Under the pieces are notes generated by a model. That model made no database searches. It saw only the letters and a list, made by a program, of their open reading frames with translations, and had not been told where the DNA came from. Below, piece by piece: positions 930 to 19,413 of a stretch of 33,773 nucleotides of DNA. The stretch comes from a virus (Duplodnaviria; Caudoviricetes), in IMG/VR virus record IMGVR_UViG_3300043296_000058, positions 1-33,773 of that record. One strand, given 5' to 3'. Within the stretch, counting starts at the first letter, position 1. The number at the start of each line of letters is the position of its first letter. Both the position numbers and the translations under genes were made by a program.

Positions 930-1171
930 TATAGTCTACCTCTTGATGTCTTGCCGTTACCCGTAGATGCTGTTTGCGTTAAGCCGTTGCCCGTTGAACC
1001 ATCACTCAATAAGCCATTACCTAATGAGCCACCGCTAATAATACCTCCTGCAACTGGAATAGTAGGAGGTATTATTGTCGATATATCATAACCCATTGTT
1101 ACTAACTCACCTATCGAACCGATAAACGAGCCATTACTAAAGCCGCGAGTAACTAAGCTTGCAATACTCAT
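929..1171 (-). CDS. Small Gly/Ser-rich putative virion accessory protein
   Basis: 80 aa, repeated GS(L/T)GNG motifs; TAATG-type coupling. Confidence 0.55.
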   Translation of the reverse strand: MSIASLVTRGFSNGSFIGSIGELVTMGYDISTIIPPTIPVAGGIISGGSLGNGLLSDGSTGNGLTQTASTGNGKTSRGRL

Positions 1172-2097
1172 TAGCTTGCTCTTGTGCTGCTTGTTGGGTT
1201 AGTAGCATCGTCTAGCGTGTAGGTTGCCGCTGTTGTGCTTCCATCAATCTTCTTAGTTGTTTTAGTTGTGCCAGCATAGGCAAAATCACCTAAATTCTGT
1301 TGGATGTTAAATATACCTTGCGCCAATGTAGGGGCAACACCATCAGCAGCATAACTTTCTGTCATTTGAGTAGTTAGTATTTGTGACACTGTTGGAGCTG
1401 TTGCAACCATATCAGTATTAGTTGTGGTTGTTGCACATAATGTAACGTTTGCCACTGCGTCCGCTGCGGGATCGAAATAAGAAGCCGCTACCAACGTCCT
1501 AGCATTGAATTCTGCCACTGTTGGAACGTCTGCAATGGCTGCTGTGTGGTCTGCTGTTTGCGGGGTATTGCCTGTGTAGGTTGTTAGCGTATTAACTAGC
1601 GTTACAACTGCTACCGCGTCTGTTGCCCATGAGAAGTAATCTGCATCAGGTCTTGTTCTGGCATTAAATTGTGCAACCGATGGGGGTACAACAGTATTAA
1701 ATCCGGTGGCGGTTAACCAGTCACCTTGATTGGTTTGTAGGTCGTTGGTGTCCACTAGTATTGTGTCAACAACCGTATCAATTGCAGAAAACCCAGTTGA
1801 GCCAGCAGCTAAAACATTATTATCTACTGTCTGAGGGAATTGAGTATAAGTTTGAATTGTTGCTGGAATAGCGCCTGTACCAGTAAACGTAACAGAGATA
1901 TGATCTCCATTAGTTTCAGCCTGTGTGATAGTGTAAGAGTGAAAGCCATTACCTTCATGTGTTACAGCACCGCCGCCAGCGCCTTGAGTGCCGCCGTCAA
2001 CAGTAACTAAGGCACTAACAGTACCAGTAAATGCTGTGCCGTCTGCCGCTGTTATCATTTGAGCGCCAATAATTTGAGATGCTACATTTTTTTTCAC
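1171..2097 (-). CDS. Thr/Ala-rich putative fibre or decoration protein with internal repeat
   Basis: 308 aa; two copies of VP..VA.FNART....YF..A.DAVA.VTL; low-charge structural composition. Confidence 0.65.
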   Translation of the reverse strand: MKKNVASQIIGAQMITAADGTAFTGTVSALVTVDGGTQGAGGGAVTHEGNGFHSYTITQAETNGDHISVTFTGTGAIPATIQTYTQFPQTVDNNVLAAGSTGFSAIDTVVDTILVDTNDLQTNQGDWLTATGFNTVVPPSVAQFNARTRPDADYFSWATDAVAVVTLVNTLTTYTGNTPQTADHTAAIADVPTVAEFNARTLVAASYFDPAADAVANVTLCATTTTNTDMVATAPTVSQILTTQMTESYAADGVAPTLAQGIFNIQQNLGDFAYAGTTKTTKKIDGSTTAATYTLDDATNPTSSTRAS

Positions 2098-2106
2098 TTT
2101 ATGCCC

Positions 2107-3582
2107 TTACTGTATTAGTACATTTGCGCTTCTAGCCCAAGCAACTTGAAAGCCAGACACCACCGCTGTAACTGTATGTGTTGGAGTTGCTATTATATCA
2201 CTAGTTCCCGTGGTTAGGCTAGCCGCTGGAATTGTCCATGTGATTGTTTCTGTTTCGGCAGTGTCGTAAGTTGCGAATGCGGGTAATGTGATTGTTGCGA
2301 CTGTATCGCCAACTGATAACACGACATCAGCATTATCTAATGTGCTTTTTATTAACGCATCCCATTTGTTAGCGCCTGTTTTATCTGAGTCTGAACCGCC
2401 TGCAATACCATCTTCGCTTGATGTGCCAGTTACGAAAGTGTCACCCGATAATGTCAATATTATTGTTTTGCCACCCGTAACTATATCAGCTTCGGTTTGT
2501 GTTGGTACTGCTGTACCTGTTATTGATACACCGCCGCTACTAACAGGAATAGGGGTTCCTGCTGTCATAAATGTACTAGGCGAATCTTCATTGTTGAATG
2601 ATGTAGATACAAATGCAGCAGTAGGCTCTATTTGACCGACCATTATTTCATCAATTTCACCAGCGTACGCTAATCCTCCGCCGCCGCCTGTGTTTGCTAT
2701 ATTGTTGCTCTGCGCCACGCCGCCCATTGCGGCAGCAGTTGAAATTGTTACAGATTGTCCATTGATATAAACGGTAAACGAGTTTATATCAGCAGCATCG
2801 ACACCATCAAAAGCTATATCTAGTTTTGTATAGTCGTTTAATATTAAACCTGACGCTCTTAAATTAACCCATTCTGCGGATGATGAACCGAACGTAAATT
2901 GAGTATAAGAACCGCTGCTATTTGTAAATATTTGCCAGCCCGCAGCGGCATCACTCGCTAACGATAACATAACATCATTATCTGTTATATCTGACGCAAT
3001 CCATGCCGATATGTGGTACGGAGTTGCTTTTAGTATGTACACTGTACTACCAATCGCTACCTGTTGATTTGCCCCGTTAAAATCCTGACCGTTGCCGATT
3101 TTACCCGTGACAATAACCCCATTTGATGTACCGTTATTACCGTTCCCCGTTGAATCTACAGCCGTTAATGACTCTAAATGATGGACTATTTTTTTACTCT
3201 GCCATGTGTCATCACGTCCAAAAACTGCGGATGTAGCTGGCTGGGTTAATGCCGCATCACCGTATTCAACATAAATAACCGTGTCAACAGTAGATGAAAC
3301 AACCCAAGAAGGGTCGCTACATCTTAATTGTATCTTTGCATCACCTGCACCTGTGGAAGTATCGTACTCAAAAGTAATAACTTCAAGATTCAATCTGCCT
3401 GTTTGATTTGAATTTAGATAGAAGCGTAAGTCACCACCATCAGCTTTAGCTCTATTAGAGCCGGAAGGGTCAACAATTTCGTTATTTAGCTCTGTACGTG
3501 TAACAAGTAATTGCATACCCGTAACATCAGAAATTACTTTTGTATTGTCTATTGTTATTGATTGCTGGCGAGTATTTGCCAT
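2107..3582 (-). CDS. DUF2341 + LamG/concanavalin A-like lectin domain protein (putative adhesin or virion appendage)
   Basis: DGGDLRFY...IYVEYGD (DUF2341-like) followed by VHHLE...DSTGNGNNGT...GKIGNGQDFNG...ISAWI...VYING...GEIDE (LamG-like). Confidence 0.75.
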   Translation of the reverse strand: MANTRQQSITIDNTKVISDVTGMQLLVTRTELNNEIVDPSGSNRAKADGGDLRFYLNSNQTGRLNLEVITFEYDTSTGAGDAKIQLRCSDPSWVVSSTVDTVIYVEYGDAALTQPATSAVFGRDDTWQSKKIVHHLESLTAVDSTGNGNNGTSNGVIVTGKIGNGQDFNGANQQVAIGSTVYILKATPYHISAWIASDITDNDVMLSLASDAAAGWQIFTNSSGSYTQFTFGSSSAEWVNLRASGLILNDYTKLDIAFDGVDAADINSFTVYINGQSVTISTAAAMGGVAQSNNIANTGGGGGLAYAGEIDEIMVGQIEPTAAFVSTSFNNEDSPSTFMTAGTPIPVSSGGVSITGTAVPTQTEADIVTGGKTIILTLSGDTFVTGTSSEDGIAGGSDSDKTGANKWDALIKSTLDNADVVLSVGDTVATITLPAFATYDTAETETITWTIPAASLTTGTSDIIATPTHTVTAVVSGFQVAWARSANVLIQ

Positions 3583-6813: not shown

Positions 6814-7560
6814 CTATTTAATTAATCGTTCGTGAATTGCTTTAACCATTGCTACATCATCGTGACAATAATCAATTACTTTTTGCGGGTCAGTTTGCCA
6901 AGTGTCATAAACTAGTGAGCCGTCCATGCCTTCTGTTTTGCCTTTAATACCAAGTATTGCACATAGGTTATCAGCGCTAATTGAATTGCCGTAACCTGCC
7001 CATGCTGTCATCGTGTCGTAACAGTTATAACCATGCTTGGCATCATTCCACTTTACGTTTTTGCAAGTGGATACATTATTAATTACTGAGCGTTTCCAGA
7101 TGAACGGCAAATCGAATTTTGTTATGTAATGCCCAATAAAATTAGGTTTACGAACTTCTAAGCCATTTCTTGAGCACATAGAATCAATGTGTTCATGAAA
7201 GCATTTAAGCATCATAGACTCACTACCTAAACTTTTAATGTCGAATCGAACAGTGTCACCGCCAACATCAATACAAATGCATGCTATCGGAGCAACATCA
7301 GGGTTAAAGCTTGTTTTCTCCCACTTAGCCCGTGCAACATCAGCGCTTTTGCTTTCTGCTAGTTCGTTTTCCCAACGTGAGATCATATCGTCTTTGCTGG
7401 TAAACTTAATTTCTTTAGCATCCGTCAATCCCAAATCAATTGCCGCTTGCGCCTTACTTAAAGTTGATGGTGCTTTAAAGTTTTCTTTAACATCTGCTAA
7501 AATTTGTAAGCGATGTTCTTCTGGTGATCTAAGTGTTTCTATATCTATGTAAATATTCAT
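6814..7560 (-). CDS. DEDD/DnaQ-like 3'-5' exonuclease (PolB-exo2 type)
   Basis: ExoI IDIET, ExoII GHYITKFDLPFI, YDTM, ExoIII YCHDDV. Confidence 0.9.
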   Translation of the reverse strand: MNIYIDIETLRSPEEHRLQILADVKENFKAPSTLSKAQAAIDLGLTDAKEIKFTSKDDMISRWENELAESKSADVARAKWEKTSFNPDVAPIACICIDVGGDTVRFDIKSLGSESMMLKCFHEHIDSMCSRNGLEVRKPNFIGHYITKFDLPFIWKRSVINNVSTCKNVKWNDAKHGYNCYDTMTAWAGYGNSISADNLCAILGIKGKTEGMDGSLVYDTWQTDPQKVIDYCHDDVAMVKAIHERLIK

Positions 7561-10298: not shown

Positions 10299-10910
10299 TT
10301 ATTCCATATCCTCGAACATCTCAATAACATCTTCACATAAAGGAGATCGAAAACATTTAGCTTCAGCAAAGTCTATAACGTTCATATTTTTATGTTTCAA
10401 CATGCCGTGATAAACCTTTTCTAAGCCTGAGCTTCTCTGGTTGTCACTGGTTTGTTTTAAATCTCCAGTTATCGCCATGCGTGTTTTTTTGCCTGTTCTA
10501 GTCATGAGTACATATAATTCGTTAAGTGTGCAGTTTTCAGCTTCATCAAGTATTAAAAATTCGCCGTCAATTGTGCGGCCTTGTAAGTGCTCGAAACTGG
10601 CAAAGGTAATAAATCCTTTTTCTGGGCATAGTGCTGCGGCTGGGAATACACCTAAATCAATCAATATGTCGGTTATATTTGCCATCCACGGATCAACTTT
10701 CTTATCCAGTTCTCCAGGCAGGAAACCGTAGCTTTTACCAAAGCTCACTGGTGGTCTAACAATGGTGATGTGGTAGTCTTTTTCGATTGCTGATTGCAGT
10801 GCTGCGCGGGTTTTTCCTGTTCCTGGTGGCCCTATTAGAAGTGTTATTGAATCTTTTTCTGTTTGCATTGCGCGCATTGCGCTTTGGTATATTTCGCCGC
10901 TGTCTCTCAT
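10299..10910 (-). CDS. phoH: PhoH-like ATPase
   Basis: GPPGTGKT, RP, GFLPGELDKK..PW, QGRT, ILDEAEN, TRTG, GDLKQ. Confidence 0.93.
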   Translation of the reverse strand: MRDSGEIYQSAMRAMQTEKDSITLLIGPPGTGKTRAALQSAIEKDYHITIVRPPVSFGKSYGFLPGELDKKVDPWMANITDILIDLGVFPAAALCPEKGFITFASFEHLQGRTIDGEFLILDEAENCTLNELYVLMTRTGKKTRMAITGDLKQTSDNQRSSGLEKVYHGMLKHKNMNVIDFAEAKCFRSPLCEDVIEMFEDME

Positions 10911-11592: not shown

Positions 11593-12297
11593 TTAATGGC
11601 CATGAATAACTAGGACCACTTCGCCATCATCTAAATACTTTTTAATTTCTAGCTGATAAAGTTCTGCAGTATCTTTCTGCTCCCAAACTCTATTGGCCCC
11701 GTTTGGTATTTTTGTTCTACGAATATTTTCAACAGTAAAATTTAATAAGCCTCCTTTTCTGTTAGTGGCCACGCTAATTAACTTTGCAAACTCCCACTTG
11801 GCCACGTGCTTTTTATTAGGGTTGAATGAATTTACAGTATCAATACATTCCATCGTGAACCATTCGCCTAGAATATGAAACTGCTTACAGGCCCTATGAA
11901 GCTTTTTCTCTATCTTAACTGCTTCTGCAGGCGTATTGGCTATGTAGTAACTCCAAAGTAAAACTAACTTAACTGGGTTCGCTGTCTGCAGTGATTTTAA
12001 TCTAGATTTCACATTGCTAGACATTCCCAGTTTAATTTGCTGGCCATTACTGATCGCATATAAATAATGCTTCTTGGCCACTGCAGGTTTTTTCTTTACA
12101 TAGGTTAATTGCTTGGCCAACTTCTTTTGTGCTGCAGTAAGATAATTATTTATTTGAAACCATTTAATTAACGATACTGCTTTTTGCTTATCATCGTGGC
12201 CAGTTGTCTTGGCCAATGAAAATCGTTTTAAATTAACTATGATCATTTCTTCATAGCTTAAGTGTGATTTATACTTCTTCTTTTTAGCTTTACTCAT
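11593..12297 (-). CDS. GIY-YIG superfamily nuclease, T5orf172/MUG113 type
   Basis: YLYAISNGQQIKLGMS.NV..RL..LQTANP..L.LL...EKKLH...F...GEWF. Confidence 0.85.
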   Translation of the reverse strand: MSKAKKKKYKSHLSYEEMIIVNLKRFSLAKTTGHDDKQKAVSLIKWFQINNYLTAAQKKLAKQLTYVKKKPAVAKKHYLYAISNGQQIKLGMSSNVKSRLKSLQTANPVKLVLLWSYYIANTPAEAVKIEKKLHRACKQFHILGEWFTMECIDTVNSFNPNKKHVAKWEFAKLISVATNRKGGLLNFTVENIRRTKIPNGANRVWEQKDTAELYQLEIKKYLDDGEVVLVIHGH

Positions 12298-16786: not shown

Positions 16787-16878
16787 TGAGCGACGACGAT
16801 ATAGCCAAAGCTAGGCGCACAGAGTTTAACTGGTATTGTGTTTGGGCGGTTGTGATAACTATTGTGAGTTGTTTATGA
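16786..16878 (+). CDS. 30-aa membrane micropeptide (not in ORF track)
   Basis: MSDDDIAKARRTEFNWYCVWAVVITIVSCL; TAATG and ATGA couplings, GAGG RBS. Confidence 0.55.
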   Translation: MSDDDIAKARRTEFNWYCVWAVVITIVSCL

Positions 16879-17318
16879 AAATAAATCTGATAAAAACGGC
16901 TAACGGTAAATTCTGGCCTGTGGATGAAGAAGCTGAACTTAAAATAGCCAAGCTTAAAAAAGGTGATGTTTATGCTGCTGATATTAAAGTTAACCATAAT
17001 TACGAATTACACAAAAAGATTTTCGGCTTCTTTAAATTCTGCACAAATTATTATTACGGCGATATGGAAGCAAGCAAGTGTGAATATCAGTTTGGGCGCG
17101 TGAGACGCAAATTAACGATAGCAGCGGGGTATCGTAAGCAAGTGTTCGGGCGTGATGGTGTTAGCTTCGAAATAGTACCGTTAAGCTTGAAATACGAGTC
17201 AATGCCAGATGATGAAAGGCAAGTATTTTACAAACGAATGACTCAAGCCGCATTAGATAATATATTTAATGATGGTGCAGATGATAATGTGATCAATCAG
17301 TTGTTGAGTTGGTTTTAA
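16875..17318 (+). CDS. DUF1367 family protein (nin region)
   Basis: MKINLIKT...P.DEE....I.KLK.G.V...DIK...NY..HKK.F.F...LTI.AGY...P.SL.Y..M....R..FY. Confidence 0.8.
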   Translation: MKINLIKTANGKFWPVDEEAELKIAKLKKGDVYAADIKVNHNYELHKKIFGFFKFCTNYYYGDMEASKCEYQFGRVRRKLTIAAGYRKQVFGRDGVSFEIVPLSLKYESMPDDERQVFYKRMTQAALDNIFNDGADDNVINQLLSWF

Positions 17319-17893: not shown

Positions 17894-17985
17894 ACTTAAA
17901 AAGAACGAATACAACGAGGGTTTATAGTCATACTTAGCGGTATTTTGTCTATAAACTCACAAAGCAAACCTTGACGGGATTTATT

Positions 17986-18165
17986 ATGAAAGAATGGGAA
18001 CGGATAGTTAAAGAAAGTCGGAACAACTTATGGTTAGTGGTTACTGAATTCGGTTCTTTTATTTGTAAAAAATTTAGAGGTCGATTTTTCGTTAAAGATT
18101 GTGTCAATGAATTACCAGTAAAAGGCGCGGTTTTATCTAGCGTTAAGCTTTGCAATTTCTTATAG
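17986..18165 (+). CDS. Hypothetical protein
   Basis: ATG 17986 with GGGA RBS; overlaps the start of the DpdA-like gene. Confidence 0.6.
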   Translation: MKEWERIVKESRNNLWLVVTEFGSFICKKFRGRFFVKDCVNELPVKGAVLSSVKLCNFL

Positions 18166-18767
18166 ATGGAAGTTCTAATCGAATAAGAGAGCGTAGGCTA
18201 CAGGCCAATGAACTTGTTGCTGGGCAACTGTTAACGCCTTTAACTGGCTACAGAAAATGTGAAGATGTTTTTGGTGTTGATAACGGAGGATTTAAAGAAG
18301 CTAGACCAAAAGGTTTTTCAAAGATTCTTCAAAGGCAATTCGAGTTCAGAGAGCAATGTTTGTTTGCAGCTGTACCAGATAAGGTAGGAAACCATAAGCA
18401 AACCTTAGCTATGTGGGATGAATACCAGCATCTAGCGGATGGGTATAAAAAAGCGTTTGTTGTTCAAGATGGTTTTGATGAATGGCCTAATAATGCCGAT
18501 GCTATATTCCTTGGCGGCAGTACAGAATTCAAGGATAGTATTGAGGCGGATAACATAGTAAATGCCGCATTAAATAATAATATGCACGTTCACATAGGGC
18601 GAGTAAATACTATCGAAAGGTTTTATCACTTTCATAAGTTAGGCGCTCACACTTGCGATGGTAGCGGCGTAAGTATGTATGACCACATGCTAGAAAAACT
18701 ATATAGATTGTTCAAGATTTACGAAAGTGGCTCGACAATCAAAATGAAACAAATAAATTTATTTTAA
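18150..18767 (+). CDS. TGT-fold, DpdA-like (7-deazaguanine DNA transglycosylase-like) protein
   Basis: Motifs in TGT order: VDNGGF (cf. DSGGF), VPDKVG, AFVVQDG, AIFLGG, VHIGRVN, TCDGSG. TTG start, with an in-frame TAA two codons upstream. Confidence 0.7.
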   Translation: MQFLIDGSSNRIRERRLQANELVAGQLLTPLTGYRKCEDVFGVDNGGFKEARPKGFSKILQRQFEFREQCLFAAVPDKVGNHKQTLAMWDEYQHLADGYKKAFVVQDGFDEWPNNADAIFLGGSTEFKDSIEADNIVNAALNNNMHVHIGRVNTIERFYHFHKLGAHTCDGSGVSMYDHMLEKLYRLFKIYESGSTIKMKQINLF

Positions 18768-18804: not shown

Positions 18805-19413
18805 ATGCCAAAGTGTAGATATTGCAAATCAAAAACAGATAAACCGATACGAAGAGGTATTTATAACTTCTGTTCGATTGCGCACGCTACAGAATTCACA
18901 CTTGAGCTACTCAGCAAGCAACGCGCAAGGCAAAAACAGAAAGCTAAGCAAGTGGCAGTCAAGAAGGTTAAAGCCTTTAATCGTGAGACTAAGCGCCGCA
19001 AAGAAGCTATTAAAAAAAGAACTGGTAAAGGTGGTTTTTATGAAAATTTAAAAACAGCGCTTCACCGATATATTAAGCACGTATTGAGAAAAGGCGAAGA
19101 TTGTTATACTTGTGGCAAAAAACAACGTTATGAAGACTCAGGCCAAGCTTTTCATGTTGGTCATTTTATACCGCAAAAATCAGTTGATCCCCGACGGTTT
19201 ATGTTAGCGAATTTAAGGATGCAATGCTACAAATGCAATACTCATAATTCAGGTATGCGAGCCGAATACAGACAGAGATTAATTAAAGATGAAGGTCTTG
19301 ATCACGTTGAATGGCTAGAGTGCGATACTAATCACAAAGAGCTAAAAGAACAATACCCCGAAATTTCAGATATAAAAGCTGAAACCGCAAGGTATAGGAA
19401 ATTAACTAATTAA
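18805..19413 (+). CDS. ninG: NinG/Rap family recombination endonuclease
   Basis: KCRYCK...FCS..HA; CYTCG...HVGHF...RF...N...QCYKCNTHNSG...YR..LI...G...VEWLE. Confidence 0.9.
   Translation: MPKCRYCKSKTDKPIRRGIYNFCSIAHATEFTLELLSKQRARQKQKAKQVAVKKVKAFNRETKRRKEAIKKRTGKGGFYENLKTALHRYIKHVLRKGEDCYTCGKKQRYEDSGQAFHVGHFIPQKSVDPRRFMLANLRMQCYKCNTHNSGMRAEYRQRLIKDEGLDHVEWLECDTNHKELKEQYPEISDIKAETARYRKLTN

What the first reader, a model, noticed from the sequence alone, without database searches (positions are those of the whole stretch)
18150..18767. Orphan, compact DpdA/TGT-fold enzyme with a C-terminal beta-clamp motif (QINLF)
Seen: TGT-type motifs in only 205 aa, a TTG start, and the terminus KQINLF. No folE/queD/queE/queC/gat genes occur in the window. 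Known: TGT/DpdA enzymes exchange guanine for 7-deazaguanines, phage DpdA protects DNA from restriction, and QL[S/D]LF is the sliding-clamp-binding consensus. Inference: the phage scavenges host preQ0/preQ1 and modifies DNA at the fork. Alternatively the enzyme inserts another base or acts as a glycosylase.
Basis: partly seen in the sequence, partly recalled or inferred. Interest (0 to 1): 0.72.

Follow-up and report, generated by a model that had tools for sequence, protein, structure and literature searches.

The report
Minimal clamp-tailed phage DNA guanine swapper
This phage gene encodes a stripped-down, 205-residue relative of the enzymes that swap guanine for 7-deazaguanine; it likely marks the phage's own DNA with a base taken from the host, and a tail motif enriched across its large, unassayed family would tether it to the host's DNA-copying clamp.

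Summary
Observation confirmed: ORF 18150-18767, TTG start, ends KQINLF. No preQ0-pathway gene was found in this 98%-complete P22-like phage contig. The model is a bare TIM barrel (pLDDT 93). The three TGT/DpdA aspartates (D44, D77, D170) are kept in 112-115 of 116 diverse homologs; the zinc site is absent. It is no sequence orphan: it belongs to PHROG 15826, about 2,400 clusters at 50% identity, labelled 'DpdA-like' in SEA-PHAGES records but matching none of DpdA1-4 by profile. In relatives the gene abuts queD, queC, queE, a preQ0 importer or a mini QueF-L (29 of 55 groups; random 3.6), which ties the family to 7-deazaguanines. A clamp-motif-like tail occurs in 44 of 126 representatives (shuffles 9.7) at a near-fixed offset, but one subclade lost it and binding is untested. 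Best reading: a replication-coupled DNA guanine/deazaguanine exchanger fed by host preQ0. Orphan dpdA phages are already known, and those tested carried trace dADG or nothing, so restriction protection is uncertain. This scan met the family before on other DNA (e1-139227, e1-189158). The clamp link is the new part.

The parts
18150..18767 (+). Compact DpdA/TGT-fold protein, 205 aa, PHROG 15826
   Evidence: E 1.4e-22; model pLDDT 92.8
18279..18281 (+). D44 after strand 3; inferred general acid/base (DpdA D95, Z. mobilis TGT D102); aromatic F48 four residues on, as DpdA F99
   Evidence: D in 112 of 116, F/Y48 in 115 of 116; roles from PMC10164549
18378..18380 (+). D77 after strand 4; inferred guanine-edge recognition (DpdA D130, TGT D156)
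   Evidence: 115 of 116
18657..18659 (+). D170 on strand 8; inferred nucleophile (DpdA D256, TGT D280)
   Evidence: 115 of 116
18750..18764 (+). C-terminal QINLF, fits the clamp-binding consensus Q-aliphatic-x-L-F; low-confidence tail in the model
   Evidence: pLDDT under 50 at 203-205; consensus in 10.64898/2026.05.27.728225; enrichment
17971..18165 (+). Small overlapping upstream ORF (59-64 aa, likely start ATG 17986); similar 54-61 aa ORFs precede the gene in 7 of 9 close relatives inspected; may couple translation to the TTG start (inferred)
   Evidence: no Pfam match
16836..17318 (+). Context: NinB-like gene
   Evidence: phrog_319, E 3e-28
18805..19413 (+). Context: NinG/Rap endonuclease gene directly downstream
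   Evidence: PF05766, E 2e-22

Best explanation
The gene encodes a predicted bare TIM-barrel enzyme that keeps the TGT/DpdA active-site residues and likely swaps guanines in phage DNA for a host-made 7-deazaguanine, while its C-terminal QINLF would hold it on the host beta clamp. Inferred chemistry, by analogy with DpdA: D170 attacks C1' and releases guanine, forming a covalent DNA intermediate; D44 then activates the incoming base. This phage has no synthesis, import or tailoring gene, so the base would be preQ0 or ADG from the host queuosine pathway, probably at low density. The protein lacks the zinc site and the large insertion that gives bacterial DpdA its DNA-binding surface; clamp tethering would stand in for them and bring the enzyme to newly replicated DNA. 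Shown: ORF, conserved residues, gene linkage in relatives, motif enrichment. Predicted: fold. Inferred: residue roles, DNA substrate, inserted base, clamp binding, benefit.
For: Fold: eight strands alternating with helices, pLDDT 92.8; TGT entries fill most of the Foldseek PDB list; TGT Z 12.0, rmsd 3.6, 193 aligned and DpdA 7ui4 Z 11.5, rmsd 4.5, 191 aligned, with the highest identity listed, 15%. Residues: D44 112, D77 115, Q106 116, G122/G123 116, D170 115 of 116, in the order of D89/D143/Q187/G214/D264 of E. coli TGT and of the DpdA catalytic set. Profile link to DpdA1: probability 65%, E 6e-5. Linkage: 35 of 55 locus groups hold a queD/C/E, folE, Vut or mini-QueF-L gene, 29 within 300 bp (random anchors mean 3.6, max 9 in 1000), all 95 hits on the same strand. 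Salvage: Vut/YhhQ importer within two genes in StevieRay, ReqiPine5, Aoka and CRP-701; mini QueF-L upstream in 75%-identical relatives L001 and L096. DNA context: nin/replication region, with DNA methyltransferases near the gene in L093 and L098. Tail: 44 of 126 representatives against 9.7 in shuffles (max 19 in 500), 23 of 682 other ORF tails and 25 of 1044 body windows; the Q lies 20-26 residues after the nucleophile in 44 of 47; 33 of 53 relatives at 66% identity or more. QLNLF binds clamps in vitro.
Against: The fold match is tied with unrelated TIM barrels (pyruvate kinase Z 13.0), and profile comparison with bacterial TGT gave nothing (probability 0.4%), so the residue mapping rests on motif order and strand position, not on a superposition. 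No member has been assayed in any paper found. Tested dpdA-only phages had 50 dADG per 1e6 nt (7-11), none (Orion) or 0.13% of G with little effect on the restriction enzymes tried (MED16). 20 of 55 groups show no pathway gene in the DNA fetched. 5 of 55 already carry a full DpdA1, and the phiG7 and SHIN8 copies are split. Tail: 82 of 126 representatives lack the patterns, a subclade has lost it (1 of 54), the patterns are looser than the published consensus and were chosen after seeing the tails (the strict QxxLF/MF form is 11 of 126, shuffles 0.6), and a fixed offset also fits a structural role. The host is unknown.
Confidence: 0.5

Rival explanations
1. It is a DNA deazaguanine exchanger fed by the host, but the tail does not work through the clamp (it packs on the barrel or a partner, or is dispensable).
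For: Motif missing in 82 of 126 representatives and in 53 of 54 members of one subclade with an intact active site; fixed offset after helix 8; deazaguanine insertion is held to be post-replicative (PMC10516641).
Against: The motif switches between five- and six-residue forms among close relatives, as clamp motifs do; the tail is low-confidence in the model; QINLF is at the extreme C-terminus and is the only such tail among the window's ORFs scanned.
Confidence: 0.22
2. It removes bases without replacing them (glycosylase), for example attacking deazaguanine-modified DNA of competing phages, or it is a near-inactive relic here for lack of substrate.
For: No supply gene in this phage; Orion's lone DpdA gave no modification; split copies in phiG7 and SHIN8; glycosylases against deazaguanine DNA exist (10.1101/2025.10.29.685425).
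Against: Adjacent synthesis, import and tailoring genes in 29 of 55 groups only make sense if a base is put in; both catalytic aspartates are kept; no PADLOC match for 8 members; 83%-identical intact relatives exist.
Confidence: 0.14
3. The target is not phage DNA: host or phage tRNA/RNA, or a protein as in Cap10-type deazaguanylation.
For: Q106 is of the tRNA-TGT type (Q203) rather than the DpdA His181; Cap10 is a zinc-less TGT-fold protein that binds a deazaguanylated protein and appears at Z 10.5; lone QueC neighbours in 4 groups.
Against: A clamp-type tail, replication-region placement and DNA methyltransferase neighbours point to DNA; no QueA-type or CBASS partner appeared among the recurrent neighbour clusters that were annotated; the nearest profile is phage DpdA1.
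Confidence: 0.1

Closest known systems
Phage DpdA1, including dpdA-only phages (Salmonella phage 7-11 gp32, Pantoea phage MED16; PHROG 887)
   Same: Same motif order around the three aspartates; stand-alone gene relying on the host; 7-11 protein only 234 aa; nearest profile.
   Different: Separate PHROG (15826, not 887); family HMM scores DpdA1 proteins at 1.4-7.7 bits; own invariant set Q106-D-G, K128, H-x-G-R-V-N, R157; clamp-like tail not seen in the three DpdA1 references; coexists with DpdA1 in 5 of 55 groups.
Bacterial DpdA (S. Montevideo, PDB 7ui4)
   Same: TIM barrel, Z 11.5 over 191 residues; catalytic D95/D130/D256 and F99 have counterparts.
   Different: No CXCX2C zinc motif in 0 of 277 family proteins; the chain ends 35 residues after the nucleophile, leaving no room for Ins8; Gln where DpdA has His181; half the length.
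SEA-PHAGES 'DpdA-like tRNA-guanine transglycosylase' genes (StevieRay 54, Sonali 81, Aoka 40)
   Same: Same family, 32-35% identity, PHROG 15826; 11 of 25 matching records carry this label.
   Different: An annotation only; no assay, subfamily definition or clamp motif found in print.
DpdA2 (nt-1), DpdA3 (phiST), DpdA4 (HVTV-1 gp69, DUF6610)
   Same: Divergent viral TGT-fold exchangers; DUF6610 is the nearest named cluster by language-model features (0.90, 190 shared).
   Different: No significant profile match to any of the three references (probability under 1%); 259-464 aa.
Clamp-binding motifs of DNA polymerases, MutS and Hda
   Same: QINLF fits Q-aliphatic-x-L-F; relatives show the six-residue form.
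   Different: Here on a base-exchange enzyme; binding untested.

Membership tests
TGT/DpdA transglycosylase superfamily | (beta/alpha)8 barrel | tested here: met
   the fold alone is tied with other barrels
TGT/DpdA transglycosylase superfamily | Three invariant aspartates after strands 3, 4 and 8 | tested here: met
   D44 112, D77 115, D170 115 of 116 at those strands; mapped by order and position, no residue-level superposition available
TGT/DpdA transglycosylase superfamily | Guanine pocket: aromatic at Asp+4, Gln/His after strand 5, Gly after strand 6 | tested here: met
   F/Y48 115, Q106 116, G123 116 of 116; reference residues
TGT/DpdA transglycosylase superfamily | Guanine exchange activity | not testable with these tools
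   needs an assay
Bacterial DpdA / tRNA TGT | Structural zinc site CXCX2C...H and the large insertion after strand 8 | tested here: not met
   0 of 277 proteins with the motif; chain ends after helix 8
Bacterial DpdA / tRNA TGT | Match to PF01702, NF041059 or PADLOC DpdA models | tested here: not met
   no hit
Phage DpdA1 (PHROG 887) | Profile membership | tested here: not met
   no PHROG 887 hit for the window protein or 9 other members; 1.4-7.7 bits; only remote profile similarity (65%)
DpdA2 / DpdA3 / DpdA4 | Sequence similarity to the type proteins | tested here: inconclusive
   one reference each, hhalign probability 0.3-0.9%; DUF6610 nearest named cluster at 0.90; single sequences limit sensitivity
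Viral deazaguanine-modification loci | Linkage to preQ0 synthesis, import or tailoring genes | tested here: met
   met for the family (29 of 55 groups adjacent); no such gene in this window
PHROG 15826 (unknown function) | Profile match | tested here: met
   E 1.4e-22; 9 other members 7e-27 to 2e-123
Beta-clamp-binding proteins | Q-aliphatic-x-L-F in an exposed terminal stretch, enriched in homologs | tested here: met
Beta-clamp-binding proteins | Physical binding to DnaN | not testable with these tools

The most novel reading that the evidence does not exclude
A fifth viral DpdA subfamily, thousands of clusters strong, is a minimal base-exchange barrel that has traded its zinc and DNA-binding insertions for a beta-clamp tether, writes 7-deazaguanines into DNA at the replication fork, and takes its chemistry from one plug-in neighbour gene (QueD, QueE, QueC, QueF-L, a DpdL-like gene or a preQ0 importer), with the tether dropped where the phage brings its own clamp.
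Probability: 0.3. Interest if true: 0.75.

Novelty: new variant of a known kind. Interest (0 to 1): 0.55.

Why it matters
Deazaguanine insertion in phage DNA is held to be post-replicative and is assigned to four viral DpdA subfamilies. A very common fifth subfamily that is about half the size and clamp-tethered would tie the reaction to replication, show how a small temperate-type phage can tap a scarce host metabolite with one gene, and offer a 200-residue DNA base-exchange enzyme. It makes an open question testable: what lone dpdA genes do. The test is one gene in E. coli, with and without five residues.

Tried and rejected
No match of the window protein in Pfam, NCBIfam or PADLOC. PDB sequence searches gave one chance hit and none. 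hhalign with the narrow alignment A1 against 7-11, HVTV-1 and phiG7 DpdA gave 5%, 0.1% and 7%. hhalign against 7 bacterial TGTs gave nothing. One source name for P0011 (Cmr3) was set aside as unsupported by any profile or fold. My recalled idea that TgvAB is TGT-like was wrong: it is GmrSD-like. Searches for a Mu Mom-clamp precedent found nothing relevant; a T4 glucosyltransferase-gp45 interaction is recalled only and unverified. Promoter and terminator scans were at chance level (15 against 17.7; 3 against 3.8). GC of the gene (37.5%) matches its flanks, no sign of recent import. Own-clamp against motif: 0 of 8 against 12 of 44, Fisher p 0.17, not significant and not independent. An earlier count said L093 has an ATGA overlap; one search shows TTGA.

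Full report
Observation. The ORF lies at 18150-18767 on the + strand, is 205 aa, starts with TTG just after an in-frame stop and ends KMKQINLF. Homologs start at the same residue, and the 83%-identical L093 also uses TTG while 8 other close relatives use ATG. The contig is a linear virus record, 98% complete by CheckV, with P22-type coat, scaffold and ejection genes and NinB and NinG on either side of the gene. It breaks inside what is likely terL and no portal gene was found, so a few kb are unseen. Best coat matches are 31-34% identical, to phages of Vibrio, Pseudomonas and Xanthomonas among others; a gammaproteobacterial host is an inference. No supply gene was found: 0 hits for 92 pathway queries; no QueF, ArcS core or mini QueF-L.

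Family. The protein matches only PHROG 15826, unknown function. It has 251 relatives by single search, 4064 of 5813 candidates by profile and 2416 clusters at 50% identity, 1495 of them at E 1e-10 or better. Of 50,697 phage records 25 match, duplicates included; 11 carry the label 'DpdA-like tRNA-guanine transglycosylase'. The scan noted the family before in two coliphages with a split copy.

Fold and active site. The model has eight strands alternating with helices, pLDDT 92.8, pTM 0.89, and a low-confidence end at 203-205. Foldseek returns TGTs and other barrels at E 1e-4 to 1e-3. The wide search ties many barrels: pyruvate kinase Z 13.0, TGT 12.0, archaeal TGT 11.9, DpdA 7ui4 11.5 (15% identity, the highest listed), Cap10 10.5. 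The fold alone does not name the family; the residues do. In 116 sequences (the window protein plus the 115 of 150 representatives with 180-230 aa) D44 is kept in 112, F/Y48 in 115, D77 in 115, Q106, G122 and G123 in 116, K128 in 113, H148, G150 and R151 in 114, R157 in 113 and D170 in 115. These follow strands 3 to 8 in the order of E. coli TGT D89, F93, D143, Q187, G214, M244-G245, D264 and of DpdA D95, F99, D130, H181, L236, D256, where D95 and D256 are the tested acid/base and nucleophile (PMC10164549, passages; PMC5699537, passages). The mapping is by order and strand; no tool gave residue pairs, and profile comparison with 7 bacterial TGTs failed. The zinc motif is absent from all 277 family proteins held and the chain ends 35 residues after D170, so the insertion that forms the DNA-binding surface of bacterial DpdA is missing.

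Subfamily. Against 5 DpdA1 proteins the profile gives 65%, E 6e-5; against single references 37% (7-11), 34% (Sonali 87), 12% (phiG7) and under 1% for DpdA2, DpdA3, DpdA4 and TGT. DpdA1 proteins fall in PHROG 887, this family does not. The nearest named Atlas cluster is DUF6610, the DpdA4 domain, at 0.90. It works like a DpdA but is not a member of DpdA1-4 by these tests.

Neighbourhoods. 87 loci (the window, 5 annotated phages and 81 IMG/VR loci; one search kept the best 80 of 107 confirmed among 600 stretches scanned) collapse to 55 groups at 80% identity. 35 hold a queD, queC, queE, folE, Vut or mini-QueF-L gene in the DNA fetched and 29 have one within 300 bp; random same-strand anchors give mean 3.6, max 9 in 1000; all 95 hits are co-oriented. 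20 groups, the window among them, show none, though many loci are short. The partner is often single: QueD 10, Vut 6, QueC 4, mini QueF-L 3, QueE 1. The 80-aa neighbour matches archaeal QueF-L (5jyx, E 4.8e-4) and lies upstream in two relatives of 75% identity. Three QueD-like neighbours read IHRHNY/VHRHNY in place of CxxxHGH, like the proposed decarboxylase DpdL. Among cultured carriers StevieRay, ReqiPine5, CRP-701 and Aoka have a Vut importer beside the gene, Aoka also QueF; nothing of the kind was found among the neighbours tested for Weirdo19 and Ssp-JY42. Mycobacteria lack the preQ0 pathway (PMC6884629), so an importer there fits salvage of a free base. The 5 bacterial genomes tested (of 6 loci) all have TGT and QueC. 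5 groups also carry a full DpdA1 with its pathway; in phiG7 and R29Z the gene follows a phage clamp gene.

Tail. QINLF fits Q-aliphatic-x-L-F, and QLNLF binds both E. coli and B. subtilis clamps, 3-4-fold weaker than QLDLF (10.64898/2026.05.27.728225, passages). Of 150 representatives 126 were scored (24 dropped as fragments, or with no usable tail). 44 carry Q..[LMFI][FLW] or Q..[LMF].[LFMIW] in the tail, against 9.7 in shuffles (max 19 in 500) and 23 of 682 tails of other mechanically called ORFs; the strict Q..[LM]F is 11 against 0.6. Body windows give 25 of 1044, and the Q lies 20-26 residues after the nucleophile in 44 of 47 cases; in the window it is 31. Among close homologs (125 of 127 scored): 33 of 53 at 66% identity or more, 4 of 18 at 58-66%, 1 of 54 below 58%, where tails are shorter. 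The patterns were chosen after seeing the tails and are looser than the published consensus.

Mechanism. Most likely: double-displacement exchange of guanine for a host-made 7-deazaguanine in phage DNA, with the tail parking the bare barrel on the clamp behind the fork (0.5). Exchange without a clamp role 0.22; glycosylase or idle relic 0.14; RNA or protein target 0.10. The benefit is uncertain. dpdA-only phages are a described group of 76; 7-11 has 50 dADG per million nt and Orion none (PMC6884629, parts 2-4 of 7 read); MED16 has 0.13% of G as dADG with little effect on restriction (PMC8306585, passages and section 10). K128, at the place of TGT E219/E235, may read the 7-substituent; that is untested.

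Prior art. Searches: DpdA with sliding clamp, 2 listings with one mention each, not read; clamp-binding motif with phage DNA modification, 0; DpdA5, 0; DpdA-like, 5 listings; TGT-like since 2023, 2. Five cultured carriers' or cluster names are absent from the 11 supplements of PMC6884629 and six from the one supplement held for PMC10516641; its phage table may not be in that file, so a listing there is not excluded, and subscription journals were not searched. PMC10516641, 10.1101/2025.04.06.647259, 10.1101/2025.10.29.685425 and PMC12137116 were seen as passages only.

Verdict. A real gene of a large, loosely annotated, unassayed DpdA-like subfamily. The lone-gene state is ordinary; the minimal barrel, the single-partner cassettes and the positionally conserved clamp-like tail are not in the papers found. 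New variant of a known kind; interest 0.55.

Noticed in passing
L001:9760-9999, L096:407-646, L062, L032, L017, L087, L112, L113: A 79-90 aa mini QueF-L family (CP...E...E...H) next to the gene; matches archaeosine synthase QueF-L 5jyx at E 4.8e-4 and PHROG 37496. Shorter than the 109-aa solved QueF-L.
   Followed up: partly
L029, L030, L040, directly downstream of the gene: QueD-like proteins with IHRHNY/VHRHNY instead of CxxxHGH, resembling the proposed CDG decarboxylase DpdL, with no other que gene in the DNA fetched.
   Followed up: partly
L003, L004, L008, L012, L019, L024, L027, L038: All 8 groups with a phage-coded clamp-like gene lack the tail motif (12 of 44 others have it); p 0.17, kin not independent.
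   Followed up: partly
L003:10001-10593 (phiG7); SHIN8: The gene is split into two ORFs in both Seuratviruses, which also carry a full DpdA1; L092 and L113 copies are also in two pieces.
   Followed up: no
window 17971-18165: Small upstream ORF conserved in close relatives; in the window its stop has moved four codons past the TTG start. No family match.
   Followed up: partly
L007:4427-4957, L129:2141-2674, L131:1577-2430: Unannotated Vut/YhhQ importers (and a QueF-like gene in Aoka) beside the gene in actinophages; their records call them hypothetical or membrane proteins.
   Followed up: yes
L129:3385-4302: ReqiPine5 has a PAPS-reductase-like gene directly downstream of the family gene, next to terL.
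   Followed up: no
window 10299-10910, 11593-12297, 6814-7560: PhoH-like gene, MUG113/T5orf172 endonuclease-like gene and a stand-alone 3'-5' exonuclease in the early region.
   Followed up: no
window 1171-3582: Two Ala/Thr-rich ORFs (308 and 491 aa) between the lysis genes and terS with no Pfam or PHROG match; may be virion proteins.
   Followed up: no
BFVD entry A0A0F7L9Z1: A 499-aa marine virus protein matches the model at TM 0.70 over 220 columns, suggesting a fused form of this barrel.
   Followed up: no
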